From: Escherichia phage VpaE1_ev78
Direction: 5' to 3' (one strand)
DNA length: 64,000 nt
Sequence record: LR597663
Positions 435 to 58,344 of this stretch are shown one piece after another. The notes below the pieces were generated by a model, which saw only the letters and a program-made list of their open reading frames with translations, was not told the DNA's origin and ran no database searches. The position numbers and the translations under genes were made by a program. Position 1 is the stretch's first letter; the number at the start of each line of letters is the position of its first letter.

Positions 435-529
435 TAAGTCTCCTTTGTAGAACAAGGCAGACCTACAGCTTTAAGTAAGATGGTACAGTAATCCATACAA
501 CAAGTCAAGAACTATTGCAAGTTAAAAAA

Positions 530-575
530 GTTGTTGACAAAGTACTTGACAAGGTGTAGGCTTATAAATACTTAG
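530..575 (+). promoter_or_regulatory. promoter-like element with tandem TTGACA hexamers (GTTGACAAAGTACTTGACAAGGTGT), A/T-rich -10 candidates downstream
   Basis: Two TTGACA boxes 12 nt apart followed by TATAAATA; near-identical copy at about 42018-42048. Confidence 0.45.
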
Positions 576-683
576 AAGATAACTTAAAAGGTTCCTCTAA
601 AAAGGCTATTTAAACAGATATCTTTCTGGATATCTATCTTTTATCTTAAAAGCCTTTTAAGAGGTCTTATAAGAGGCATACCA

Positions 684-1136: not shown

Positions 1137-2552
1137 ATGAGCGAATTATTTAAACATGCGCACCTTCATGCAGGTCGAACTGAAAATGGTGCTGTAAACC
1201 ATACTTCATCAATGTCTGCTCTTGTGGACTTTTATAAAGCTGCTGGTTCAAGCCGTAGCAATGTAGAAGTCTTACCAGACCTGTTCTACAAAGCTTTGCG
1301 TGAGGATGTTGATGTTGCAGTTCGTATTTTGCTTCATATGCGAGATGTACGAGAAGGTATGGGTGAGCGTAAAGCCTTCAGAACTGTTTTGCTTCAAGCG
1401 ATTGAAGACAAAGTTTTAGAGCCTGTACAGGTTCTTCGCATTATGGATAAGATTGCAGAACTTGGTCGTTTTGATGACTTCAAAATCTTCGTAGGTACTC
1501 GTTTCGAGACAGATGCCTTCAAACATTTAGAAGCAGCATTACTAGACCCTGCAACAGCAGGTTTGGCAGCCAAGTGGCTACCACGAGTCAAACCACGTCA
1601 TAAGCAGTTTGTAAAACGTTTCTGCAAGTTTGCCAACTTGAGTGAGAAAGAGTACCGCACACTGTTGTCTGCACTATCTGATACAGTTGAGCAAAAAATC
1701 TCTGCTAATGAGTTTGGTAAGATTGACTACAGTAAGATTCCTTCTCTTGCTGCTGCACGTTACCAAAAGCTGTTTAACCGTAAAGATGGAGAGCGTTACA
1801 AAGCTTACATCGAGTCCTTATCAAAGGGTGAGGCTAAGATTAATGCTGGTGCTGTTTACCCATACGATGTGATTAAATCTGTCAAGCATGGTAATGCAGA
1901 TGTTGCTAATGAGCAGTGGAAAGCACTACCAAACTGGATGGCAGAAGGTGAAAACATCTTATGTATGACTGATGTTTCAAGCTCAATGTCTTGGGTGAAT
2001 TTTGGCTCCATTACTGCTCTTGATATTGGTGTATCACTTGCCTTGTATGTAGCAGAACGCAATACAGGTTGCTTTAAGGATGAGTTGATGGTTTATTCAA
2101 CAAACCCTCACTTCATCGAACTGAGTGGTGATTTACGAAACCGTCATCGTCAGGTGATGCGACACGTTGAATATGGCTCAACCAACTTACAAGCAGCTTT
2201 TGACCGCATTCTTGAGATAGGTAAGAGAAACAACTTGACTCAGGAAGATATGCCAAGTAAGCTTATCATCTTCTCCGATATGGAGTTCAATCAGGTTGAT
2301 GGAGCTAACGGTCGTACAAACTTTGAAGCAATTCAGAGCAAGTACAAGAAAGCTGGATATGAGATGCCACAACTGGTATTCTGGTACTTAGCAAACCGTA
2401 ATGGTACTTGCGAAGTGTCTGTTAAGGATAACGGTGTAGCAATGGTATCTGGTTTCTCTCCAGCCACTTTAAAAGCTCTGCTTGGTGGTGAGAAGTTTGA
2501 CCCAATCAGCGTAATGCTCAAAGCAGTAATGATTGACCGCTATATCTGGTAA
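1137..2552 (+). CDS. vWA-domain protein with MIDAS motif and N-terminal helical domain (DUF2828-like / Ro60-like architecture)
   Basis: C-terminal half contains DxSxS (TDVSSSM), a conserved Thr (GSTNL) and Asp (FSDMEF) typical of vWA MIDAS; N-terminal 260 aa predicted helical; RBS GAGAAGAGAG upstream. Confidence 0.75.
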   Translation: MSELFKHAHLHAGRTENGAVNHTSSMSALVDFYKAAGSSRSNVEVLPDLFYKALREDVDVAVRILLHMRDVREGMGERKAFRTVLLQAIEDKVLEPVQVLRIMDKIAELGRFDDFKIFVGTRFETDAFKHLEAALLDPATAGLAAKWLPRVKPRHKQFVKRFCKFANLSEKEYRTLLSALSDTVEQKISANEFGKIDYSKIPSLAAARYQKLFNRKDGERYKAYIESLSKGEAKINAGAVYPYDVIKSVKHGNADVANEQWKALPNWMAEGENILCMTDVSSSMSWVNFGSITALDIGVSLALYVAERNTGCFKDELMVYSTNPHFIELSGDLRNRHRQVMRHVEYGSTNLQAAFDRILEIGKRNNLTQEDMPSKLIIFSDMEFNQVDGANGRTNFEAIQSKYKKAGYEMPQLVFWYLANRNGTCEVSVKDNGVAMVSGFSPATLKALLGGEKFDPISVMLKAVMIDRYIW

Positions 2553-2569
2553 AAAGTTTTAAAAAGGGT

Positions 2570-2598
2570 ATTGACAATGTGTTTAATACCCTTTAATA
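2570..2598 (+). promoter_or_regulatory. sigma70-like promoter (TTGACA, 17 nt, TAATAT); -35 sits inside inverted repeat AAGGGTATT / AATACCCTT
   Basis: Hexamers and spacing read directly from sequence. Confidence 0.55.
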
Positions 2599-2661
2599 TG
2601 TTCTACATAGAAACGAAATGAGAGCTTTTCTAAGATACTGAAAAATATTTTAAAAAAGTTC

Positions 2662-14550: not shown

Positions 14551-15657
14551 ATGTTGACTAATTCTGAAAAAAGCAGATTTTTCCTTGCTGACCTGACTGG
14601 TGAAGTCCAGTCTATCCCAAACACTTATGGGTATATTTCCAACTTAGGTCTATTCCGTTCAGCACCAATCACCCAAACTACTTTCCTTATGGACTTGACT
14701 GATTGGGATGTTAGCTTGCTTGATGCGGTAGACCGTGATAGCCGTAAAGCAGAGACTAGCGCACCTGAGCGTGTTCGTCAAATCAGCTTCCCAATGATGT
14801 ACTTCAAAGAAGTTGAAAGCATTACTCCTGATGAGATTCAGGGTGTACGTCAGCCAGGCACTGCAAACGAACTGACTACTGAAGCTGTAGTACGTGCTAA
14901 GAAGCTGATGAAGATTCGTACCAAGTTCGATATTACTCGTGAGTTCCTGTTTATGCAAGCTCTGAAGGGTAAAGTTGTTGATGCTCGTGGTACTCTGTAC
15001 GCTGACCTGTACAAGCAGTTCGACGTTGAGAAGAAGACTATTTACTTCGACCTTGACAATCCTAATGCTGATATCGACGCTTCTATTGAAGAACTGCGTA
15101 TGCACATGGAAGATGAAGCTAAGACTGGCACTGTAATCAACGGTGAAGAGATTCACGTAGTTGTTGACCGTGTATTCTTCAGCAAACTGGTTAAGCATCC
15201 TAAGATTCGTGATGCTTATCTTGCACAGCAGACTCCACTGGCTTGGCAACAGATTACTGGTTCTCTGAGAACTGGTGGTGCTGACGGCGTTCAGGCTCAT
15301 ATGAATACTTTCTACTACGGTGGTGTTAAGTTTGTCCAGTACAACGGTAAGTTCAAAGACAAGCGTGGTAAGGTTCACACTCTGGTTAGCATTGACAGCG
15401 TAGCAGACACTGTTGGTGTTGGTCATGCTTTCCCTAACGTAGCTATGCTGGGTGAAGCTAACAACATCTTCGAAGTTGCATATGGTCCATGTCCTAAGAT
15501 GGGTTACGCAAATACACTTGGTCAGGAACTGTACGTATTCGAATACGAAAAAGACCGTGACGAAGGTATTGACTTCGAAGCTCACTCTTACATGCTGCCA
15601 TACTGTACTCGTCCTCAGTTGCTGGTAGATGTTCGCGCTGACGCTAAAGGCGAATGA
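14551..15657 (+). CDS. major capsid protein (lambda gpE-like family)
   Basis: 368 aa; position after protease and decoration gene; codon usage shifted toward highly expressed pattern (CTG, CGT, GGT, ACT). Confidence 0.75.
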   Translation: MLTNSEKSRFFLADLTGEVQSIPNTYGYISNLGLFRSAPITQTTFLMDLTDWDVSLLDAVDRDSRKAETSAPERVRQISFPMMYFKEVESITPDEIQGVRQPGTANELTTEAVVRAKKLMKIRTKFDITREFLFMQALKGKVVDARGTLYADLYKQFDVEKKTIYFDLDNPNADIDASIEELRMHMEDEAKTGTVINGEEIHVVVDRVFFSKLVKHPKIRDAYLAQQTPLAWQQITGSLRTGGADGVQAHMNTFYYGGVKFVQYNGKFKDKRGKVHTLVSIDSVADTVGVGHAFPNVAMLGEANNIFEVAYGPCPKMGYANTLGQELYVFEYEKDRDEGIDFEAHSYMLPYCTRPQLLVDVRADAKGE

Positions 15658-15678
15658 TATTCTTAAGGAGGGTTATGA

Positions 15679-16128
15679 ATGTGTTATACAGGCGACCCAG
15701 CCAATAACCCTCTTGATAGAGTAAGAATCCTCTGCACAGACACCAATAATGATGAAATTCTTATTGAACAGTCTGTGCTAGAGTGGTTCTATCTAGAATC
15801 TGGAAAGGATGAAAAGAAAGCAGCCATCAAAGCTCTTAAATATTTACTCTTTCAAGTAGCCAAGATGGGAGATGAGAAGGTTGGTGGTGTTTATTTACGT
15901 AACTCTTCCAGATTCAAATCTCTGAAAGCTGTTTATGACGACCTTGTTAAAAGCTCTGTTTCAGGACTACCCTATGCAGGTGGTATTAATCAGTGTGACA
16001 TTGATATGCGTCGTCAGAATCCTTGCTCTGTCAAGAAATACACAGAATATGGTGATGCTGCCAGATACGAAGGCAGAGATTACTGCAACCGTGTTAATGG
16101 CGTATTTATTATCGAGCGAGATGAATAA
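15679..16128 (+). CDS. head completion / head-tail connector protein (putative)
   Basis: RBS AAGGAGGG; position after capsid gene. Confidence 0.45.
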   Translation: MCYTGDPANNPLDRVRILCTDTNNDEILIEQSVLEWFYLESGKDEKKAAIKALKYLLFQVAKMGDEKVGGVYLRNSSRFKSLKAVYDDLVKSSVSGLPYAGGINQCDIDMRRQNPCSVKKYTEYGDAARYEGRDYCNRVNGVFIIERDE

Positions 16129-16610
16129 TGGTTAAAAGGGTTATTCACCCCGCTAGAGCAAAATTAGTCGGGGCTATGAAGAACTTGCAAACGGCTAATG
16201 CTCAAGTTGGGTATTTTCAAGAACAAGGTCAACATAGCTCTGGTTTTTCTTATCCTGCTTTAATGTATTTACAAGAAGTTATTGGGGTTCCTTCAGCTTC
16301 TGGTAAAGTATATCGTAGGTTGTTTGAAATCACTATGATGCTAAACAGACAGACCTTGTTAGAGCAGACTAAGAAGAATCTATATAAGCAACTTAGCAGT
16401 CTCAACACAGACCCTTCAAATACCTTAGAAGCATTTGCAAAGAATGCTCAAAAGGCAATTAAAAGGGGTTTTGGTAATTCTGCTATCCTCCCTCCTAACG
16501 CACCTTCCACAGTCAAGAAAAAAGGCTTTAATGCACCTCTTGTTGAGACAGGTGACTTAAGAGATAACCTTGCTTATAAAATTTCTACTAAGAAGGGTAT
16601 TAAGAAATGA
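16128..16610 (+). CDS. head-tail joining protein (putative)
   Basis: Coupled ORF (ATGA overlap) in connector region. Confidence 0.45.
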   Translation: MVKRVIHPARAKLVGAMKNLQTANAQVGYFQEQGQHSSGFSYPALMYLQEVIGVPSASGKVYRRLFEITMMLNRQTLLEQTKKNLYKQLSSLNTDPSNTLEAFAKNAQKAIKRGFGNSAILPPNAPSTVKKKGFNAPLVETGDLRDNLAYKISTKKGIKK

Positions 16611-20111: not shown

Positions 20112-28109
<7,998 letters not shown>

Positions 28110-34970: not shown

Positions 34971-35300
34971 TTAATCTGCCAGCCTTAAATTAAAATTAAC
35001 ACCAAATTTTTCGCATACTTCCAACATATACTCAAGGGAGACATTACCAGTGAGGTGGATTATGTTGGATACGCGAGCCTGAGAGATACCACAAATTTTA
35101 GCAACTTGCTCTTGAGAAAGACCTCTGGATTTAATCTCTCTCTTAAAACGATGTGCAACGAAATCTCTCATTTCGTCTACATCCATTGGACAAATATAAC
35201 TCTCCATTTCAGCCTCTCTGTCAGCCTCCCAATCATCTTGTGGAGCATAAGGGTCAAAAACCTCATTCATCTTTCTTCTTCCGTTTTCGTGAAGTGTCAA
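34971..35300 (-). CDS. helix-turn-helix DNA-binding protein (XRE/Cro-like)
   Basis: C-terminal HTH-like segment LSQEQVAKICGISQARVSNIIH. Confidence 0.55.
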   Translation of the reverse strand: MTLHENGRRKMNEVFDPYAPQDDWEADREAEMESYICPMDVDEMRDFVAHRFKREIKSRGLSQEQVAKICGISQARVSNIIHLTGNVSLEYMLEVCEKFGVNFNLRLAD

Positions 35301-39260: not shown

Positions 39261-41960
39261 TTAATGCACTTCCAACCACGATTTACCAACCTTACCAGTA
39301 CCAGTTACCAGTGTTTCACTCTTTAGTCCTAAGTTCTTAGAGGCTTGCCCGTAATACCAATCAGTGACAGCTTTCACCTCTGCCGTCATACTTTCTGGGC
39401 ATTCCCAACTCGTCTCGTCGTGATAGGAGCACAATAAACGAGCACCTATAGCTGGTTTGCGACCGTTCAACTTCATCAAACCTTCGTCAATCATACGACG
39501 GCAAGCAAGGTTAATTGCCTCGTTCTGAATCTGACTTTCCGAACCCATGAGCAAATAATTCAATAGCTTATGCGGAGATTTACACCACAACCAAGCTCCA
39601 GCAACCTTTACAAAACCCCCTTTAGAGATTGCAGCAGTCTTACCAAACACCTCTTCAAGTGCCTTTTTAGTTGCTTTGTAGTCAGCTTCCAAGTCATCTA
39701 GTAGCTTCTTAATTTTAGGCAAACGAATAAAGTAAGTTTGTTTAGTCAGTGCACCTTCCTGAGTAGTTGCAGCTTTAATCGTCTTAGCAAACTTCTCATC
39801 CCCTGCACCGAACAGCAGTGCATAGATACCATTCTTAGCTTTCTTACGGCCTTTGCTAATCTCATGAAGAAGGTTCTCATCCTGAGTAGCTCGACAAGTC
39901 AAGATGTCCTGCTCATCATTCAAGCTAAAGTAAATACTGTTCAGTGTATGTGCATCAGTCCCTGAATAGACAACGTACAGGTCATTCTCAGAGTCATAGC
40001 GAAGGTACTTATCAATCTCTGGGTTGAGGTACTCATCAAAATGTTTGCAGTAATAGCGTCCATCTTCTTGACGAATGAACTCAATCTCTTCTTTACCTTG
40101 CGTTACCGCTTTGGTGAAGTCTTTATCGCCCATAAAGTTACAAAGAAGAACTAGCTGGGCTGAGTTCATATCTACAGAGACAACGTTAGTACCTTCCTCA
40201 CAAATCCACACTGCCCTCATTGGTTCTCCATAGACAGCAGCACCAGACGGTACGTTTACAATACCATACTGTGTCATACGTCCAGTTGAAGTACCAAACA
40301 CCATTGCACCAGCACTAAGGCGACCATCAGGACGAATCTGGTTCAACCAACCTTTTTCATCATCCTTTGAGTTCTCAATAGTTCTGCGTCTGTGCATCAA
40401 AGTATAGTACTTAGCAATCTTCTGTCCAAGCTCACCTTCAATCGTATCATAAGATGATTCCGTAAGTTTTGGTGAAGTACGGATTAAGCAAGGTTCAAGC
40501 AAATCTGTGTACTTCTTCACAGACCAGTTATGCTCGATGTACTGGACGCCTTCATGCTCGACATAACTCAAACCACACCGTTCAACCATCTCCTGCCACT
40601 TAGGATGCTTTGTAATCATCTTTTTGTTGTCTTTGAAACGACAAACTTTGACAGGGCGACCATCTGAGTCTTTCTTGTAGTTCCAGTCATCTGGAATCCA
40701 ACCAACTGATTTCAAGTAGTCTTTAACAACTGCTACCTGAGTCATACGAGAAACTTCAAACTCAATTGGTGTATATGGTGCATCAATCAATCCTGTGTAG
40801 CGACTTGAATCCAGTTCAAAGTGGTTAACAACATGGCTGTTATAGTACTTCACAGTCTTAACTGTCTTCACTGGCTTCCAGTCTTTGCATTTCTTACCAA
40901 TCTTTGCATTCAACTCGTTGCAAATTGCACGAGCATCCTTCATTGCTACAAAACCTTCCTTGTACTCTTCACCAGTTACAGAGTTGGTTGGTGTATAGCA
41001 ATTTCTCTTTTCAATGTTAAAAATCTTTGTAGTTGGCTTACCAAATGGCTTGATTTCATATGTCTGCATCTCACCGTTACGTACCTGCTGACGGTACTTC
41101 GTCTTAGGGTACTTGGTAATTCTCTTCAGTCCATCTGCATGACCGAACGCTTCAACATACTCATTCCAAGCTTTTGCAAACTCTTCTCCAGTAACTTTAC
41201 CTTTAGTCTTAATAGTTGGAGGAAGATGTGGTTCAACTTCTGAAGCAAGCTCATTAGTCAACTTGTCAAGTTCCTTCACATGGAACTCCATAAGCTCTTT
41301 ATCAGCTTTCCAACCATTGATAGCTTGTTGACTCATCCAGAAAGATGTTTCTTTAGCTCGCATATAGGTTTCATAAGTGTCTATACCACACTTCTTTAAC
41401 TTCAGGTATTCATTATCCAGTGCACGTTTAGTTTTGGCGTTAATACGGATATCTTCTACAACACGAGTGAAGATTTCTGCATTCCACACACCCCAATGTT
41501 CAATCTCTGGTTTACGTACACCAACACGAGCACCCCATGCTGCCAAGCCATGAGCACCTTTATAGCCTTTTGGAGTTGGTCTATCCATCCACTGAACACG
41601 AGATTGGATAAGAGAATCCTGAAAGAAATTACTCCACGGCTTACACTTTGGATTATCAAAGTTCCATAAATCAGGTGCAATGTGATTGAAAACCCACCAG
41701 TCATAACCCAGACCATTATGGATGCAAAGTCGTTTCGCCTTTAATGCAAACTCAATACCTTCACGCAAACCACCCTTAATGTACTTGGTGTACTTGTGAC
41801 CGAGGATAGGCTCATCTGTAAAAACCCATACAGGTGGCTCTTCATCATCAGATTTATAGTCTGCGAAAGCCATTACGTGCACTTTAGTGAACTCAAGGAG
41901 TAAACCATCAGTTTCTGTATCACCAACTAAATGTAAGTTTTTAAAATCTACGTTTTCCAT
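39261..41960 (-). CDS. family A DNA polymerase with 3-5 exonuclease domain
   Basis: Exo I motif GDTETDG, motif B-like KNGIYALLFGAG, motif C CSYHDE; start trimmed to ATG after GAGGGAG RBS. Confidence 0.85.
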   Translation of the reverse strand: MENVDFKNLHLVGDTETDGLLLEFTKVHVMAFADYKSDDEEPPVWVFTDEPILGHKYTKYIKGGLREGIEFALKAKRLCIHNGLGYDWWVFNHIAPDLWNFDNPKCKPWSNFFQDSLIQSRVQWMDRPTPKGYKGAHGLAAWGARVGVRKPEIEHWGVWNAEIFTRVVEDIRINAKTKRALDNEYLKLKKCGIDTYETYMRAKETSFWMSQQAINGWKADKELMEFHVKELDKLTNELASEVEPHLPPTIKTKGKVTGEEFAKAWNEYVEAFGHADGLKRITKYPKTKYRQQVRNGEMQTYEIKPFGKPTTKIFNIEKRNCYTPTNSVTGEEYKEGFVAMKDARAICNELNAKIGKKCKDWKPVKTVKTVKYYNSHVVNHFELDSSRYTGLIDAPYTPIEFEVSRMTQVAVVKDYLKSVGWIPDDWNYKKDSDGRPVKVCRFKDNKKMITKHPKWQEMVERCGLSYVEHEGVQYIEHNWSVKKYTDLLEPCLIRTSPKLTESSYDTIEGELGQKIAKYYTLMHRRRTIENSKDDEKGWLNQIRPDGRLSAGAMVFGTSTGRMTQYGIVNVPSGAAVYGEPMRAVWICEEGTNVVSVDMNSAQLVLLCNFMGDKDFTKAVTQGKEEIEFIRQEDGRYYCKHFDEYLNPEIDKYLRYDSENDLYVVYSGTDAHTLNSIYFSLNDEQDILTCRATQDENLLHEISKGRKKAKNGIYALLFGAGDEKFAKTIKAATTQEGALTKQTYFIRLPKIKKLLDDLEADYKATKKALEEVFGKTAAISKGGFVKVAGAWLWCKSPHKLLNYLLMGSESQIQNEAINLACRRMIDEGLMKLNGRKPAIGARLLCSYHDETSWECPESMTAEVKAVTDWYYGQASKNLGLKSETLVTGTGKVGKSWLEVH

Positions 41961-42017
41961 TTTTACTCCCTCTAAAATCATTAACCTCATACATTACTGC
42001 AAAAAATTATAAAAAGC

Positions 42018-42048
42018 AAGTTGACAATGTACTTGACAAGGTGTTAAT
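42018..42048 (+). promoter_or_regulatory. promoter-like element GTTGACAATGTACTTGACAAGGTGT (second copy of element at about 530)
   Basis: 27 of 28 nt identical to the copy near 531-556; sits in AT-rich divergent intergenic region. Confidence 0.5.
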
Positions 42049-42217
42049 CTTTGCGAAGTGGGTTTTTACTTAAAAGGTTACTTAACAGTTTAACTATACA
42101 GATACTTTAAAACTCTTAAAAGATTATTTAATAGCTTTTAAAAAGCTTTAAAGTATAACGTATAGAATACGTTAAGATAAAAGATTAGAACTTAATAGTT
42201 ACTTAAAAGAGGCTTAC

Positions 42218-44468: not shown

Positions 44469-46446
44469 AGGTCGTAAATTGAAAGAGGCTGGTCAGTTTG
44501 TTGGTCATTGCGCATGTCCACGTTGTGGTTCATCAGATGCTGGTTCAATCTATCACCATGACGATGATTCTTATTCAATGACTTGCTTTAGTTGTAACAA
44601 AGGTTTCCCAGAGTGGGATTTTGATAAAGGACAAATCGTGAGCACTTATTCTACTGGTTCAGACAATAAAAACCGTACTTTCCGTGGAATGGATTTAGAC
44701 GATGTGAAAGAAAACCTTGAAGCAATGGACTTAAAGGACAGGAAGATTCCTGCAAAAGTTCTTGAGCGTTTGGGTATCAAGGTTGACATTGACAGTGACG
44801 GTGAAATTGATGCGCATTTCTATCCAACTTACAAACGTAATGAAGATGGTAAGCTAGAGCACGTCGGTTACCGTGTACGTCATCGTTATCCAGAAGACCA
44901 TCCAAAAGAACACCTACGAGGTAAGCTAAAAGACTTCTCAGGTGGTGTTGGAGACATTAAAGGTGAACTGGCAATGTTCGGTTCATGGATTGCTCCAGAA
45001 GGTGGTAACCGTCTATTCATCTGGGAAGGTGAGATGGAATGTGCGACAGCAATCTATATGACTTCTCTTGCGATTAAGGACAAGTCTCGTCGTAAGAATT
45101 ACTGTCACGTATCTGTTCCATCAGGTGCAAACATCAAGTCTATCAAAGATAACTATCAGTACATTACATCCTTTGATGAAATTTACTTGTGCTTTGATAA
45201 CGATGAAGCAGGTGCTAAAGCCACTAAAGAGGCTGCTGGTATCCTACCTATTGAGAAGGTTCGTTTATTCCAGTACCCAGAGGGTGTAAAAGACCTTAAC
45301 GAATGGTGGACAAAGTTCTATAAAGAAAAAGATACAGTTCTGGAAGGATTTAAGCAGCGTATCTACAATGCACCTCGTTACTGCCCTGCTGGTATCAAGA
45401 ACTTCGCAGATGGTTTTGAGGCAATGAAGAATCGTGGTCAGATTCCATTGATTCCTTTCCCAGAATCTTTCGGAGATTTGAACAGACTGACTTATGGTGG
45501 TTACGGTTTAGGTGAGATTACAACTCTGGCAGCACCATCTTCAGTGGGTAAATCTGCATACACTCGTGAAATGATTTATACTGCTTGGAAAGATACCGAT
45601 TACAATATTGGTGTAATTCCTGTAGAAGATACCTATGAAGAGTTGATGGAGATGCTCTGTGCAATCCACCTGAGCAAGCAGATTTCTGAGATTCCTTATG
45701 ACGAACGTGATTGGGATGAATTGAAGAAGGCACACGCAGAACTGTCTAAAGGTCGTCGTATCCACATCGTTGACCATCAAGGGGCAATTGACCAAGATAA
45801 CTTGCTGGAGTTTGTTGACTATCTTGTTAACAGCTTAGACTGTAAGATTATTATTCTCGACCCTATTACGTTGGCTCTGTCACGTTCAGATACGGATGAA
45901 GAGGAAGTTTTATCTGAGCTATTGCGTCGTTGCAAACGCTACCAGTATGCACAGGTGAACGTCTGTCACGTTCGTAAGAGTGCAGGTGGTCAGAAGGCTA
46001 ACTCCGAAGGTGGAGATATCTCTGAAGAGGATATTAAAGGTTCTGGTGCGTATTTCCAGATTTCTATGAACAACATTCTGTTAATGCGTAACAAGGTTGA
46101 CCCAGACCCTGTTAAGAAAAACTTGACAAAAATCAAGTTAACTAAATGCCGTCGTCACGGTAAGTCAACAGGTATTGCTGGTCATACTTGGTACAATCCA
46201 GATACAGGACGTCTCATTAAAGCCTCTGGTTGTGGAGTTGACATTGATGGTGCAGCAGAAAATATTCGCCAACAGTTTGGTATTGGTGAAGCTGAAGACC
46301 ATTACGATGACTCTTTGCCACATTATGAGGATGAAGTGTTTGACCGTGAGACTGGTGAAGTCTATACTGAAGAGCAGCGTCAAAGCTCAACGATTCCACC
46401 TGTATTAAGTGAGGATGCAGATGACTGCCCGTTCGAAACTGAGTGA
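44461..46446 (+). CDS. DNA primase-helicase (T7 gp4-like)
   Basis: Zinc ribbon CACPRCG...CFSCN, TOPRIM WEGEME...DNDEAG, DnaB-type Walker A APSSVGKSA and Walker B IIILDP; start trimmed to ATG after AGAGGTG. Confidence 0.85.
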   Translation: MSKGRKLKEAGQFVGHCACPRCGSSDAGSIYHHDDDSYSMTCFSCNKGFPEWDFDKGQIVSTYSTGSDNKNRTFRGMDLDDVKENLEAMDLKDRKIPAKVLERLGIKVDIDSDGEIDAHFYPTYKRNEDGKLEHVGYRVRHRYPEDHPKEHLRGKLKDFSGGVGDIKGELAMFGSWIAPEGGNRLFIWEGEMECATAIYMTSLAIKDKSRRKNYCHVSVPSGANIKSIKDNYQYITSFDEIYLCFDNDEAGAKATKEAAGILPIEKVRLFQYPEGVKDLNEWWTKFYKEKDTVLEGFKQRIYNAPRYCPAGIKNFADGFEAMKNRGQIPLIPFPESFGDLNRLTYGGYGLGEITTLAAPSSVGKSAYTREMIYTAWKDTDYNIGVIPVEDTYEELMEMLCAIHLSKQISEIPYDERDWDELKKAHAELSKGRRIHIVDHQGAIDQDNLLEFVDYLVNSLDCKIIILDPITLALSRSDTDEEEVLSELLRRCKRYQYAQVNVCHVRKSAGGQKANSEGGDISEEDIKGSGAYFQISMNNILLMRNKVDPDPVKKNLTKIKLTKCRRHGKSTGIAGHTWYNPDTGRLIKASGCGVDIDGAAENIRQQFGIGEAEDHYDDSLPHYEDEVFDRETGEVYTEEQRQSSTIPPVLSEDADDCPFETE

Positions 46447-55156: not shown

Positions 55157-57301
55157 ATGAACAAAGTACAGATTATTAAAAAGAATGGCTCACTCGAAGA
55201 ACCTGATATCAAAAAAGTTTTAGCAGCAGTAGCTAAGTCAGCTAACAGGGTTGGATATAAAGAACTTCCACCAGATGTTACCCAAGCTCTTGAGTCAGCA
55301 TTCATGAGGATTTTGGTAAAGTCCACTAAGCAGAATAATTTGCTTATCTCGGTAAATGATATTCACAGTATTGTTGAAGGTGCTTTGGCAGAAGTTAATC
55401 ACGAGATTTATGAGTCTTACTCAACATACAGAAATTACCGTAAAGAGGTTGCTCAAAATTGGGATGAACTCTACCAGAAGACTAAAGATACACTCTTCTT
55501 AGGTGACCGTGAAAATGCTAACTTTGACAGCAGTTTAATTTCTACGAAAGGTTCAATTATCCGTGGTTACCTGACTAAAGAAATCTTTAAACAGTACCAT
55601 TTAACACCAGAGGAACTTGAAGCCATTGAAAAAGGATTTATCTATATCCATGATTTAAGAGACCTAATTTTTGGTGGTATCAACTGTTGCCTGTTTGACA
55701 TTGGTAAAGTCCTGAAAGGTGGCTTTGAAATGTCTGGCATCGAATATTGTGAACCAAAGTCTGTACTGTCGGCCTTACAGGTTATAGGTGACGTAGTTCT
55801 TTCAGCAACTGCACAGCAATTTGGTGGTTTTACTTTAGCAGAGATTGATAAGGTACTTGTGCCGTATGCTAAGAAGTCTCTACGCTATCATGCTGAGAAA
55901 GCAGCATCTTATGGTATTCCTAAAGAACATTACCACAATTATGTCATGGAGCAGCTACAGATTGAACTGACTCAAGGTTTCCAGTCACTTGAAATGAAAC
56001 TAAACACTGTACCTTGTAGCCGTGGGGATTTTGCATTCACAACTTTGACATTCGGGCTACTTGACTCAGATATGTCCAATGAAGATAACCGACTGCAATA
56101 TATGATTGCAAGTACTCTCCTAGATGTTCGTATGAATGGACAAGGTAAGAGCAAGAAACCTGTTGTATTCCCTAAACTGGTTTATATTTATGACCAGAAG
56201 AGACATAATGAGAATATCTGTCAAGGCCACCTGTACAGTAAAGCTATAGAGTGTTGCTCTAAAGCGATGTATCCAGATTTCTTAAGTGTATCTGGTCATG
56301 GTGCTGTAGCAGAGGCTTTTGAGCGTTCTGGCAAGGTTATTTCGCCGATGGGTTGCCGAGCGTTCTTATCTCCGTATCTTAACGAGAATGGGGAAGAGTT
56401 CTACGTTGGTCGTGCTAACATTGGTGCTGTATCTTTGAACTTACCAATGATTTACCAGTATTCTAAAGAGAATGGTTTAGATTTCTGGAAAGAGCTTGAT
56501 AAGTACCTAGAGATGATTCGCAGCTTCCACAAGAAACGCTACGAAATGATTGCTAATATGCCAGCAAGTTCTAACCCTCTTGCATTCACACAAGGTGGTC
56601 TGTACAAAGGGACTAAGAAACCTACTGACAAGGTTGGTTGGGATATCGTGAAGTCCTTCACAGCTTCTTTTGGGGTTACTGCTCTTGATGAACTGTCTGT
56701 TCTTGCTGAAGGTAAACGACTTCATGAAGTTGGAAGATATAGTTTTGCATACGATGTTCTGGAATACATCAACATGAAAACTGAAGAGTTTAAGAACGAA
56801 GATGGCTTCTTGTATGCGGTATATGGCACTCCAGCAGAATCACTTTGTGGAACTCAGTTAAAACAGTTCAGAGATATGTTTGGCGTTATTAAAGGTGTCT
56901 CTGACAAGGAATACTTTACAAACAGTTTCCATATGAATGTTGCAGCAGACATCTCACCATTTGAGAAGCAGGACTTAGAAGAGCCATTCTTCCATATCTG
57001 TAGAGGTGGCAGAATCCAGTATGTAAGGGTAGCTAACCCAGAAAACTTAACAGCACTTAAAAGTTGTATTACCAGAGGGATGTTGAAGGGTTTTTATCAG
57101 GGACTTAACTTTGACTTAGCAATCTGTGAACATTGTGGTAACAGACCAAAGGCTGATGTTGAAGAATGTGAGGTTTGCCATTCACATGATATCTCTGTGA
57201 TTAACAGGGTGTGCGGGTATCTTGGGTGGACCAAGATTAAAGGTGAATCCCGAATGAACGATGCAAAAATCGCTGAGATTCGTGATAGAGTCTCTATGTA
57301 A
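55157..57301 (+). CDS. nrdD: anaerobic ribonucleotide reductase (class III)
   Basis: C-terminal zinc cluster CEHCG...CEVCH and glycyl-radical motif RVCGY. Confidence 0.85.
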   Translation: MNKVQIIKKNGSLEEPDIKKVLAAVAKSANRVGYKELPPDVTQALESAFMRILVKSTKQNNLLISVNDIHSIVEGALAEVNHEIYESYSTYRNYRKEVAQNWDELYQKTKDTLFLGDRENANFDSSLISTKGSIIRGYLTKEIFKQYHLTPEELEAIEKGFIYIHDLRDLIFGGINCCLFDIGKVLKGGFEMSGIEYCEPKSVLSALQVIGDVVLSATAQQFGGFTLAEIDKVLVPYAKKSLRYHAEKAASYGIPKEHYHNYVMEQLQIELTQGFQSLEMKLNTVPCSRGDFAFTTLTFGLLDSDMSNEDNRLQYMIASTLLDVRMNGQGKSKKPVVFPKLVYIYDQKRHNENICQGHLYSKAIECCSKAMYPDFLSVSGHGAVAEAFERSGKVISPMGCRAFLSPYLNENGEEFYVGRANIGAVSLNLPMIYQYSKENGLDFWKELDKYLEMIRSFHKKRYEMIANMPASSNPLAFTQGGLYKGTKKPTDKVGWDIVKSFTASFGVTALDELSVLAEGKRLHEVGRYSFAYDVLEYINMKTEEFKNEDGFLYAVYGTPAESLCGTQLKQFRDMFGVIKGVSDKEYFTNSFHMNVAADISPFEKQDLEEPFFHICRGGRIQYVRVANPENLTALKSCITRGMLKGFYQGLNFDLAICEHCGNRPKADVEECEVCHSHDISVINRVCGYLGWTKIKGESRMNDAKIAEIRDRVSM

Positions 57302-57310
57302 AACTTGACA

Positions 57311-57350
57311 AGGTGATGTGGGTCTTGATAGGCTTACATCACCTTTTTTA
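57311..57350 (+). terminator. intrinsic terminator (AGGTGATGT...ACATCACCT plus TTTTTT)
   Basis: 9-bp stem and T-run after nrdD. Confidence 0.7.
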
Positions 57351-58048: not shown

Positions 58049-58344
58049 GTAAAACAATTCGAAGAAAAGGTTTAAAGAACGTTCATGGACTTTATGAGTG
58101 GAGAAATGAGGTACGTAACAGAGAAAATGCTTCAGATGTCTACTTCCATTCTGATATGATGTCCAGAAAAGGTGGCTCTTATGACTTTACAAGTCAGCCT
58201 TGTAGAGAGATTAAGAAGGCTACTAAACGTCTTACAAGAACACAAATAAGGCAGCTTTCTAAGACATCCTTCTTAGATGAAGACTTTGACATTGACAGTA
58301 AGTCTCCGAAGAAAGCTGCTAAGAACACTTATATGTATTGGTGA
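58045..58344 (+). CDS. hypothetical basic protein (99 aa)
   Basis: Coupled ORF. Confidence 0.45.
   Translation: MSKTIRRKGLKNVHGLYEWRNEVRNRENASDVYFHSDMMSRKGGSYDFTSQPCREIKKATKRLTRTQIRQLSKTSFLDEDFDIDSKSPKKAAKNTYMYW

What the first reader, a model, noticed from the sequence alone, without database searches (positions are those of the whole stretch)
530..575. Conserved roughly 27-bp tandem TTGACA element duplicated at the heads of two early operons (also at about 42018-42048)
GTTGACAA(A/T)GTACTTGACAAGGTGT occurs at about 531 and again at about 42020, with 27 of 28 nt identical, each in an AT-rich divergent control region upstream of plus-strand operons. The conservation exceeds what a -35 hexamer needs, so it may be a binding site for a phage or host regulator, or a replication origin element.
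Basis: seen in the sequence. Interest (0 to 1): 0.5.

Follow-up and report, generated by a model that had tools for sequence, protein, structure and literature searches.

The report
Phage promoter with doubled −35 box
The repeated 25-base element is the polymerase-docking core of two host-RNA-polymerase promoters in a Felix O1-like phage. It carries an extra, strictly conserved second "TTGACA" box inside the promoter spacer, and the same design turns up in unrelated marine T4-like phages.

Summary
GTTGACAAWGTACTTGACAAGGTGT occurs at 533-557 and 42020-42044, with 24/25 bases identical rather than 27/28. There are no other full copies in a complete relative genome.

The window is a Felixounavirus. 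Both copies sit in AT-rich divergent control regions and are already annotated as sigma-70-like promoters in relatives. Site 1 is the published Felix O1 "P41".

Comparative footprinting across Ounavirinae shows what is constrained:
- an A-tract
- TTGACA #1
- a freely variable linker
- TTGACA #2
- TG
- a TAnnnT -10

Hexamer #1 always lies 16-18 bp from the -10; hexamer #2 never does. So #1 is the -35, and #2 is a conserved accessory box floating in the spacer (period 10-13 bp).

Unexpectedly, the same cassette lies upstream of gp55 in about 83% of marine T4-like phages sampled without reference to the motif. There, #1 to -10 is 17 bp in 65/65 loci. The extended sequence gave 74 viral hits against 2 (chance level) in 596 Gbp of bacterial genomes.

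The phage HTH protein is not the common reader, because it is absent from tandem-bearing relatives.

Best reading: a strong host-RNAP promoter with a "double -35". The role of #2 is inferred, not shown.

The parts
524..529 (+). Site 1 A-tract (AAAAAA) at about -45 to -40. It resembles the proximal UP-element subsite.
   Evidence: Read from the sequence. An A-run is kept in all relatives while its flanks vary. The same A-tract register is seen in the phage's other TTGACA promoters. Binding by the alpha-CTD is inferred.
534..539 (+). Site 1 TTGACA hexamer #1, the -35 element.
   Evidence: Invariant in 33 sequences comprising 8 haplotypes. A TAnnnT lies 17 bp downstream in every relative. This is the start of the published Felix O1 P41.
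540..545 (+). Site 1 linker (AAGTAC), which is unconstrained.
   Evidence: Each position shows 2-3 states among relatives. Variants include AAGGAC, AATGAC, TTCCTC, AGCCTC and AGGGGA.
546..551 (+). Site 1 TTGACA hexamer #2, an accessory box inside the spacer at about -23 to -18.
   Evidence: Invariant in all relatives. It has no TAnnnT at 16-18 bp in any genome. Its function is inferred.
555..562 (+). Site 1 TG followed by the -10 hexamer TAGGCT (557-562).
   Evidence: T-12, A-11 and T-7 are invariant, while the internal positions vary (TAGGCT, TAGCCT, TAAGTT, TAGTGT).
569..683 (+). Site 1 predicted transcription start (about A570) and the 5' leader of ORF41. It includes the shared block ACTTAAAAGGTT (582-593), CTTAAAAG motifs, and the palindromes at 616-635, 644-662 and 665-674.
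   Evidence: The start site is inferred from the -10 position. The leader is nearly invariant across three genera. It holds 3 copies of the octamer against 0.06 expected. The RNA fold z-score is -2.7.
511..540 (-). Candidate divergent promoter toward ORF40: TTGTCA (540->535), an 18-bp spacer, then TGcAATAGT (519->511). Its -35 overlaps hexamer #1.
   Evidence: Found by the consensus scan. The TGnAATnnT motif is retained in variants. Inferred only.
42011..42015 (+). Site 2 A-tract (AAAAA) upstream of hexamer #1.
   Evidence: The block AAAAAGCAAG is invariant in 30 sequences.
42021..42026 (+). Site 2 TTGACA hexamer #1, the -35 element.
   Evidence: Invariant. TGnTA(A/G)TCT lies 18 bp downstream in all relatives. 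Annotated as a promoter in ASO1A.
42027..42032 (+). Site 2 linker (ATGTAC), variable at its internal positions.
   Evidence: Variants include ATGCAC, ATTCAC, AATCAC, ATGCGC, ATACAC, AAGCAC and AACTAC.
42033..42038 (+). Site 2 TTGACA hexamer #2, the accessory box in the spacer.
   Evidence: Invariant. It has no -10 partner: AAGTGG lies at 17 bp.
42042..42050 (+). Site 2 extended -10: TGt followed by TAATCT (42045-42050).
   Evidence: TG(T/G)TA(A/G)TCT is conserved in Felixouna-, Susp- and Mooglevirus.
42056..42217 (+). Site 2 predicted start (about A42057 or G42058) and the 5' leader of ORF97. It includes the shared block at 42068-42079, CTTAA(A/C)AG motifs, the palindrome at 42133-42147 and the hairpin at 42158-42172.
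   Evidence: The start site is inferred. The leader is conserved. It holds 4 copies of the octamer against 0.12 expected. The hairpin at 42158-42172 shows compensatory changes.
41991..42019 (-). Candidate DNA-polymerase promoter lying back-to-back with the element: TTGCTT (42019->42014), N17, TAATGT (41996->41991).
   Evidence: The hexamers are conserved while the 17-bp spacer varies in Susp- and Mooglevirus. Inferred only.

Best explanation
Each copy is the RNA-polymerase recognition core of a strong promoter read by the host sigma-70 holoenzyme. One drives ORF41, ORF42 and the tRNA cluster. The other drives the ORF97 / primase-helicase / nucleotide-metabolism operon.

Anatomy:
- an A-tract at about -45 to -40, like the proximal UP-element subsite
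- a consensus -35, which is TTGACA #1
- a 17-18 bp spacer
- a TG
- a weak -10: TAGGCT at site 1, TGtTAATCT at site 2

The second TTGACA (#2) lies inside the spacer at about -23 to -18. It is not the -35 of a second promoter. It is a conserved accessory element.

My best inference is that #2 is read by the host polymerase itself, as a second docking site for sigma region 4. That could raise the capture of polymerase, or ease release of the -35 contact during promoter escape. This would help the phage promoter compete with host promoters.

What is shown: the architecture, the register, the conservation and the recurrence. What is inferred: actual transcription, the start sites and the role of #2.
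For: Identity and annotation:
- The window is a Felixounavirus.
- Both sites are annotated as sigma-70-like promoters in ASO1A.
- Site 1 is the published Felix O1 P41.

Footprinting within Ounavirinae:
- Both hexamers are invariant across Felixouna-, Susp- and Mooglevirus, and in 52 IMG/VR loci retrieved by flanking anchors rather than by the motif.
- The linker varies.
- The -10 varies only at its internal positions.

Register test:
- Hexamer #1, or the sole hexamer, has a TAnnnT at 16-18 bp in 19/19 sites. Hexamer #2 has one in 0/14.
- In Hafnia phage Zyzzx the period changes to 10 and 11, but #1 to -10 stays at 17.
- Wc4, Omen, P778 and phiEa104 have one hexamer in the same register.

Promoter class:
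- The same A-tract / TTGACA / N16-18 / TAnnnT class is found at about 10 other intergenic sites in the window.
- The genome has three tandems of period 11-13, against 0.11 expected.

Independent family:
- 65 of 78 marine T4-like loci retrieved by gp55 have the tandem.
- #1 to -10 is exactly 17 bp in 65/65. #2 has a partner in 0/65.
- A period of 11 goes with a gap of 6, and a period of 12 with a gap of 5.

Virus specificity: the extended sequence gave 74 viral hits, against 2 in 596 Gbp of bacterial genomes, which is the chance level.

Common factor: across such different hosts, the only obvious shared factor is the housekeeping-sigma holoenzyme. The phage HTH is absent from Zyzzx.

Precedent: T4 early promoters are described as UP/-35/TGn/-10 promoters carrying extra, unexplained consensus.
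Against: - No transcription start or RNAP footprint exists for these sites. No transcriptome for this phage group was found in the library.
- The -10 hexamers match only 3/6 and failed the tool's consensus scan.
- At site 1 the TG sits at -14/-13, not the canonical -15/-14.
- In Felix O1 itself that G is an A.
- No known mechanism has sigma region 4 reading a hexamer at -23 to -18.
- Binding in register #2 could just as well be non-productive and lower activity.
- #2 is dispensable in some lineages. It is single or degenerate in Wc4, Omen, S-PM2, HTVC008M and 7 of the 78 marine loci.
- The sharing of about 31 positions between two phage families could reflect an unidentified shared protein or horizontal transfer, rather than polymerase optimisation.
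Confidence: 0.62

Rival explanations
1. The two hexamers form a direct-repeat operator for a dedicated DNA-binding protein, from phage or host. That protein would switch these promoters on or off, for example in early/middle shut-off, by sitting on the -35 and spacer.
For: - The exact conservation of #2, which has no promoter partner, calls for a specific reader.
- How transcription is timed in Felix O1 is unknown.
- The mechanism of T4 early shut-off is unknown.
- ORFs 41, 42 and 96-99 share one timing class.
- The HTH regulator co-occurs with the three genera that have a period of 12.
Against: - The period varies from 10 to 13 bp, and #2 floats relative to both #1 and the -10. That fits poorly with a rigid tandem-binding dimer.
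- The only recognisable regulator is a Cro/C1-type HTH. That class normally binds palindromes.
- The regulator is absent from Zyzzx, which keeps both tandems.
- The same cassette occurs in marine T4-like phages with no evident shared regulator.
Confidence: 0.2
2. The promoter plus its long AT-rich, highly conserved leader is a transcription-primed replication origin, in which the transcript primes DNA synthesis. This would resemble the T7 primary origin (promoters plus an AT-rich region) or T4 oriF/oriG (a promoter plus a DNA-unwinding element).
For: - The leaders are 26-33% GC and are more conserved than the flanking genes. They are >=99% identical in 105 and 177 records, against 90-98% for the flanks.
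- Site 2 lies between the T7-like DNA polymerase and the primase-helicase operon.
- Both sites sit at strand-switch points.
- In the marine family the cassette lies next to uvsW and fires into no obvious gene.
- The T7 and T4 origin architectures are recalled from my own knowledge of the literature.
Against: - There is no direct evidence.
- The GC-skew switches coincide with changes in gene orientation, so they are uninformative.
- There are no iterons or DnaA boxes.
- The leaders end in ordinary ribosome-binding sites and genes.
- Their conservation can be explained by RNA or operator functions.
Confidence: 0.1
3. Hexamer #2 has no function of its own. The tandem is a relic of a short tandem duplication or of promoter-cassette recombination, and the resemblance between copies reflects gene conversion.
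For: - Promoter duplications are common in this genome. Examples are the 39-bp repeats reported in Felix O1 and the promoters at ASO1A 10224 and 11275.
- L169 shows an 8-unit, period-12 expansion of TTGACAAAGACC.
- The linker identity between the two sites is specific to Felixounavirus.
- Conserved promoter cassettes that recombine are known in T4-like phages.
Against: - A neutral relic would decay. Instead #2 is invariant while its neighbours on both sides vary, across four Ounavirinae lineages and 65 unique marine sequences.
- A simple duplication would leave the downstream copy in register. Here the upstream copy is always the one in register.
Confidence: 0.08

Closest known systems
T4 early ('über' UP/-35/TGn/-10) promoters and other very strong phage early promoters (T7 A1, T5 N25, lambda PL)
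   Same: They are host sigma-70-dependent. They have an A-rich UP-like tract, a near-consensus -35 and often TGn, plus extra consensus positions of unknown role. They serve to out-compete host promoters.
   Different: - Here the -10 is weak (3/6).
- The extra consensus is a complete second TTGACA inside the spacer.
- No such tandem is described for T4 in the papers read.
- The downstream genes peak in middle rather than immediate-early time.
PeSL (promoter-early stem-loop) cassettes of T4-like phages
   Same: They are conserved, near-consensus sigma-70 promoter cassettes present in several copies per genome. They are thought to recombine and move. The Felix early region has promoter-plus-hairpin pairs of this look.
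   Different: - Sites 1 and 2 have no adjacent terminator-like stem-loop.
- They lie in conserved core control regions rather than hyperplastic regions.
- The defining feature here is the doubled -35, not a stem-loop.
Direct-repeat sites of OmpR/PhoB-type response regulators (such as the pho box), which overlap or replace the -35
   Same: They consist of two short direct repeats about one helical turn apart at the -35 position. This is recalled from my own knowledge.
   Different: - Those sites have a fixed 10-11 bp period and replace a poor -35.
- Here the period is 10-13 bp.
- Hexamer #1 is itself the consensus -35.
- The cassette occurs in phages of unrelated hosts.
Spacer-sequence sensing by sigma-70 (residue R451, promoter position -18)
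   Same: It shows that the host polymerase can read spacer DNA near -18, where hexamer #2 ends.
   Different: That effect concerns single positions and DNA conformation, not a hexamer identical to the -35.

Membership tests
Sigma-70 (-35/-10) promoter | A -35 hexamer close to TTGACA | tested here: met
   There are exact TTGACA hexamers at 534-539 and 42021-42026.
Sigma-70 (-35/-10) promoter | A -10 hexamer (TAnnnT) 17 +/- 1 bp downstream, with T-12, A-11 and T-7 conserved | tested here: met
   19/19 Ounavirinae sites meet this. The internal positions vary while T, A and T stay fixed. In the marine family it holds in 65/65 loci. The match to TATAAT is only 3/6, below the scan threshold.
Sigma-70 (-35/-10) promoter | An intergenic position upstream of co-oriented genes | tested here: met
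   The sites lie 130 and 170 nt upstream of ORF41 and ORF97.
Sigma-70 (-35/-10) promoter | A transcript 5' end or an open complex formed by the holoenzyme | not testable with these tools
   No transcription start data were found in the library.
UP-element / extended -10 'über' phage early promoter | An A/T-rich tract at -40 to -60, and TGn at -15 to -13 | tested here: inconclusive
   The A-tract is present at both sites and is conserved. TGn is canonical at site 2. At site 1 the TG abuts the -10, at -14/-13, and it is TA in Felix O1.
PeSL promoter-stem-loop cassette | A stem-loop or terminator directly adjoining the promoter | tested here: not met
   No terminator-like site was found in either control region. 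The third tandem, at ASO1A 13302, does have an annotated hairpin.
PeSL promoter-stem-loop cassette | Multiple copies at the boundaries of variable gene modules | not tested
   There are two to three copies per genome. Any association with indels was not examined.
Operator of the phage Cro/C1-type HTH (34971-35300) | The regulator co-occurs with the site, and the site has dyad symmetry | tested here: not met
   The protein matches HTH_3. It is absent from Zyzzx, which keeps the tandem. The element is a direct repeat, not a palindrome.
OmpR/PhoB-type direct-repeat site | A fixed 10-11 bp period with a poor -35 | tested here: not met
   The period ranges from 10 to 13 bp. Hexamer #1 is the consensus -35.
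Transcription-primed replication origin | Initiation of DNA synthesis mapped to the site | not testable with these tools
   Only an AT-rich conserved leader and a suggestive position are available.
Known RNA family in the leaders | An Rfam covariance-model match | tested here: not met
   Only sub-threshold chance hits were returned.

The most novel reading that the evidence does not exclude
The second TTGACA in the spacer is a previously unrecognised, virus-specific promoter element read by the host polymerase: a second sigma region 4 contact used during capture or promoter escape. It would have been selected independently, or transferred, in at least two unrelated phage families (Ounavirinae and marine T4-like phages) to win the competition for host RNA polymerase. 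A variant of this reading is that the cassette marks transcription-primed replication origins in both families.
Probability: 0.3. Interest if true: 0.7.

Novelty: new variant of a known kind. Interest (0 to 1): 0.5.

Why it matters
How Felix O1-type phages time their transcription is unknown. These phages are widely used for Salmonella and E. coli typing and biocontrol. The 2010 genome paper found no promoter in the DNA-polymerase / ORF97 region.

This analysis does two things. It places promoters at both strand-switch hubs. It also shows they belong to a small class with a doubled -35.

The same cassette is conserved in marine T4-like phages, and its extended sequence occurs in bacterial genomes only at chance level. 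That points to a general phage trick for engaging host RNA polymerase.

The idea is cheap to test with standard in vitro transcription and reporter assays. If confirmed, it could add a new element to the bacterial promoter parts list and give a compact strong promoter for synthetic biology.

If hexamer #2 proves inert, the finding reduces to two ordinary, already annotated promoters.

Tried and rejected
- **Hexamer #2 as the -35 of a second overlapping promoter.** Rejected. No TAnnnT lies at 16-18 bp in any of 14 Ounavirinae sites or 65 marine sites.
- **T4-type late promoter.** TATAAATA at 563-570 is not conserved in other genera.
- **Minus-strand TATAAT at 42011-42006 as the polymerase -10.** It is not conserved. 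TTGCTT-N17-TAnnGT fits better.
- **The ASO1A annotations.** They use hexamer #2 at site 1 (N15, AATACT) and hexamer #1 at site 2 (N16, GTTAAT). They are inconsistent with each other and appear purely mechanical.
- **Felix O1's published "TTGACA(N15)TATAGG".** A 15-bp spacer is less likely than N17-TAGGCT.
- **Pho-box or OmpR-type site.** The period is wrong and variable.
- **The phage HTH as reader.** It is absent from Zyzzx.
- **Rfam on both leaders.** Nothing was found.
- **Generic tandem pattern TTGACAANNNNCTTGACAA in IMG/VR.** It gave at least 120 hits, roughly my estimate of chance for 15 specified bases. It became informative only after filtering for the full architecture.
- **High-GC hits to the specific pattern.** These included one of the two bacterial hits. 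They read as coding sequence (FDTFLDNVY) and were discounted.
- **Literature searches.** Searches for Felixounavirus or cyanophage transcription start data, or for a described tandem -35, found nothing.
- **Idea that #2 compensates for a weak -10.** Dropped. The marine cassettes have good -10s such as TATAGT and still keep #2.

Full report
**Observation.** The element is real.
- GTTGACAAAGTACTTGACAAGGTGT lies at 533-557, and GTTGACAATGTACTTGACAAGGTGT at 42020-42044, both on the + strand.
- No match occurred in 100 shuffles, even at 3 mismatches.
- Identity is 24/25. Over 28 nt it is 24/28, not the 27/28 reported.
- Similarity continues downstream in two blocks at matching distances: ACTTAAAAGGTT (582 / 42068) and ACAGATA (614 / 42098).

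**Context.** The window is a Felix O1-like myovirus (Felixounavirus), 97-98% identical to many E. coli, Salmonella and Shigella phages. It carries 26 tRNA genes.
- Site 1 lies between ORF40 (-) and ORF41 (+). ORF41 is followed by ORF42, the tRNA cluster and the structural genes.
- Site 2 lies between the DNA polymerase gene (-) and ORF97 (+). ORF97 is followed by the primase-helicase, exonuclease and ribonucleotide reductase genes.
- Both intergenic regions are AT-rich, at 32.5% and 26.1% GC against 39.3% for the window.
- Both are more conserved than their flanking genes. They are >=99% identical in 105 and 177 records, against 90-98% for the flanks.

**What is already on record.**
- In phage ASO1A both sites are annotated "promoter, similar to TTGACA(N15-18)TATAAT". 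One annotation uses hexamer #2 and the other uses hexamer #1, so the calls are mechanical.
- The Felix O1 genome paper lists P41 = TTGACA(N15)TATAGG at 21515-21541, which corresponds to window 534-560.
- That paper also makes three statements. No homologous sequence was found in the 96-97 intergenic region. The phage encodes no RNA polymerase or known modifier. How transcription is timed is unknown.
- Its RT-PCR table puts ORFs 41, 42, 96, 97, 98 and 99 all in the class that peaks at 25 min.
- No transcriptome or start-site data for this group were found.

**What is actually constrained.** I aligned both sites from the Susp- and Mooglevirus genera. I also aligned 52 IMG/VR loci retrieved through conserved leader blocks rather than through the element itself. 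The results:
- Both TTGACA hexamers are invariant, with 0 variable positions out of 24.
- The linker shows 2-4 states per internal position.
- An upstream A-run is kept.
- The base after hexamer #2 is always A.
- A TG is kept.
- The hexamer 17-18 bp after #1 keeps T, A and final T, while its internal positions vary. It reads TAGGCT, TAGCCT, TAAGTT or TAGTGT at site 1, and TAATCT or TAGTCT at site 2.

That pattern is the signature of a working -10. So the near-identity of the linker within this genome is not a functional constraint.

**Register.**
- Across 19 sites in Felixouna-, Susp- and Mooglevirus, Hafnia phage Zyzzx, Pectobacterium Wc4, Erwinia Omen and phiEa104, and Yersinia P778, hexamer #1 or the sole hexamer has a TAnnnT at 16-18 bp in 19/19. 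Hexamer #2 has one in 0/14.
- Zyzzx has 65% DNA polymerase identity. It keeps a tandem at both orthologous sites, but with periods of 11 and 10, and #1 to -10 stays at 17.
- Wc4, Omen, P778 and phiEa104 have a single hexamer in that same register.
- A third tandem of period 13 lies at ASO1A 13302, outside the window, with the same register and a similar leader.
- The genome thus has three tandems of period 11-13, against 0.11 expected.
- The A-tract / TTGACA / N16-18 / TAnnnT design is shared by about ten other intergenic sites in the window. These are at 1068, 2571, 2662, 4066, 46856, 57305 and 63535 on the + strand, and 35933, 36136 and 38726 on the - strand.

Conclusion: #1 is the -35 of a sigma-70-type promoter. 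#2 is an extra, conserved hexamer floating in the spacer, 4-7 bp from the -10.

**Divergent partners.**
- At site 1 the reverse complement of hexamer #1 (TTGTCA) pairs with TGcAATAGT at 18 bp, pointing toward ORF40.
- At site 2, TTGCTT-N17-TAATGT abuts the element and points toward the polymerase gene. Its hexamers are conserved and its spacer varies in other genera.
- The polymerase start codon is more likely at 41960, where the Shine-Dalgarno sequence GAGGGAG precedes it, than at 41990.
- These divergent promoters are inferred only.

**Candidate readers.**
- The protein at 34971-35300 is a Cro/C1-type HTH. Its weak Sigma70_r4 hit falls below the Pfam cut-off.
- It is found only in Felixouna-, Susp- and Mooglevirus. 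It is absent from Zyzzx, where the best local hit has E = 7.
- It therefore cannot be the general reader of the tandem.
- Palindromes in the leaders (644-662, 665-674, 42133-42147) would suit such a protein better.

**Recurrence outside the family.** This was the unexpected result.
- A generic tandem pattern hit IMG/VR at roughly the chance level. Thirteen non-Felix hits nevertheless had the whole architecture, and several were almost identical to the Felix element.
- The contigs are marine T4-like myoviruses. The cassette lies between a small ORF downstream of a UvsW-like helicase and the gp55 late sigma gene. It sits back-to-back with gp55.
- The specific pattern TTGACANNNNNCTTGACAASGTGTA gave 74 viral hits, about 48 of them non-Felix. 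It gave only 2 hits in 596 Gbp of bacterial and archaeal genomes, which is about what chance predicts. One of those 2 looks like coding sequence.
- L229 is identical to window site 1 over 35 nt.
- I then retrieved 78 relatives by gp55 protein rather than by the motif. Of these, 65 have the tandem: 34 at period 11 and 31 at period 12.
- In those 65, #1 to -10 is exactly 17 bp in every case, and #2 has no -10 partner in any. When the period drops by one, the gap from #2 to the -10 grows by one.
- Seven further loci have a degenerate second copy.
- Cultured relatives S-PM2 and HTVC008M have one clean hexamer plus a degenerate copy.
- Further lineages carry the design. The L095 group and L154 have it. 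L169 has an 8-unit, period-12 array between two terminators.

**Interpretation.** The element is a host-polymerase promoter with a doubled -35.
- The cassette recurs in phages of unrelated hosts.
- The one thing kept constant is the #1 to -10 distance.
- The most economical reader of #2 is therefore the holoenzyme itself.
- T4 early promoters are already known to carry extra, unexplained consensus beyond UP/-35/TGn/-10.
- Sigma-70 can sense spacer DNA near -18.
- How #2 acts is inferred, not shown. It could be an extra docking site that raises capture, or a stepping-stone about one escape length downstream of the -35.
- The rivals are a dedicated regulator, a transcription-primed origin, or a neutral duplication relic. 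The evidence for and against each is given in the rival explanations.

**Leaders.**
- The 115-nt and 160-nt leaders are nearly invariant across genera.
- Both are enriched in CTTAA(A/C)AG.
- The site 1 RNA folds better than shuffled controls, with z = -2.7. Site 2 overall does not, with z = -1.6.
- One site 2 hairpin shows compensatory changes.
- There are no Rfam matches.
- These features probably carry further regulation but are separate from the element.

**Verdict.** This is a promoter of a known kind with a conserved and unexplained variant feature that recurs in a second phage family. That makes it moderately interesting and easy to test.

Noticed in passing
window 583, 645, 654(-), 42069, 42081, 42115, 42202; ASO1A (L003) 14734-16269: The octamer CTTAA(A/C)AG is clustered in both leaders: 3 copies against 0.06 expected, and 4 against 0.12. 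It is very dense (17 against 0.47 expected) in a 1.5 kb gene-free convergent region of the genome outside the window. The copies are oriented co-directionally with the flanking transcription. Its function is unknown; it may be a strand-specific protein-binding or RNA motif.
   Followed up: partly
window 644-662, 665-674, 616-635; 42133-42147, 42158-42172: The leaders contain perfect palindromes or hairpins: TCTTAAAAGCCTTTTAAGA, TCTTATAAGA, AGATATC..GATATCT, AGCTTTTAAAAAGCT and ACGTATAGAATACGT. The last shows compensatory C-G to T-A changes in Mooglevirus. These are candidate operators for the Cro-type HTH, or RNA structures.
   Followed up: partly
L235-L314 and L108 etc. (IMG/VR marine T4-like contigs); S-PM2 L187 740-895; HTVC008M L186 620-830: A strong tandem-TTGACA promoter sits about 45 nt from the start of gp55 (the late sigma factor) on the opposite strand. 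It fires antisense into the preceding ORF and the uvsW operon. It may make an antisense or small RNA, insulate gp55 from read-through, or prime replication.
   Followed up: partly
L169 (IMG/VR contig, about 2870-2990 in locus coordinates): Eight head-to-tail TTGACAAAGACC units (period 12) end in a promoter, with TACATT 17 bp from the penultimate unit. The array lies between two convergent terminators. This suggests a small RNA of about 45 nt driven by an expanded -35 array.
   Followed up: no
window 41958-41990: The longest-ORF start of the DNA polymerase gene (41990) is probably wrong. The ATG at 41960 is preceded by GAGGGAG and matches the annotated starts in relatives.
   Followed up: partly
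window 2560-2600 and 57300-57345: Here TTGACA promoters are interleaved with terminator hairpins. At 2571 the -35 lies in the loop of GGGTATT..AATACCC. At 57305, TTGACAAGGTG forms part of the terminator stem downstream of nrdD. These resemble PeSL-like promoter/terminator composites.
   Followed up: no
window 1137-2552: ORF42 has DUF2828, DUF7788 and a vWA-like domain, and matches a PHROG named 'RNA-binding protein'. It sits directly upstream of the 26-tRNA cluster, which hints at a tRNA- or RNA-related role.
   Followed up: no
ASO1A (L003) 10224 and 11275, outside the window: These are duplicated promoters, TTGACACTGGTTTTTAGATAGATTAAATT. They correspond to the 39-bp direct repeats listed without interpretation in the Felix O1 paper. 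Promoter cassettes are repeatedly duplicated in this genome.
   Followed up: no
window 44783-44794 and 58286-58297: TTGACATTGACA (period 6) occurs twice inside coding regions. These are most likely coding coincidences unrelated to the promoters.
   Followed up: no
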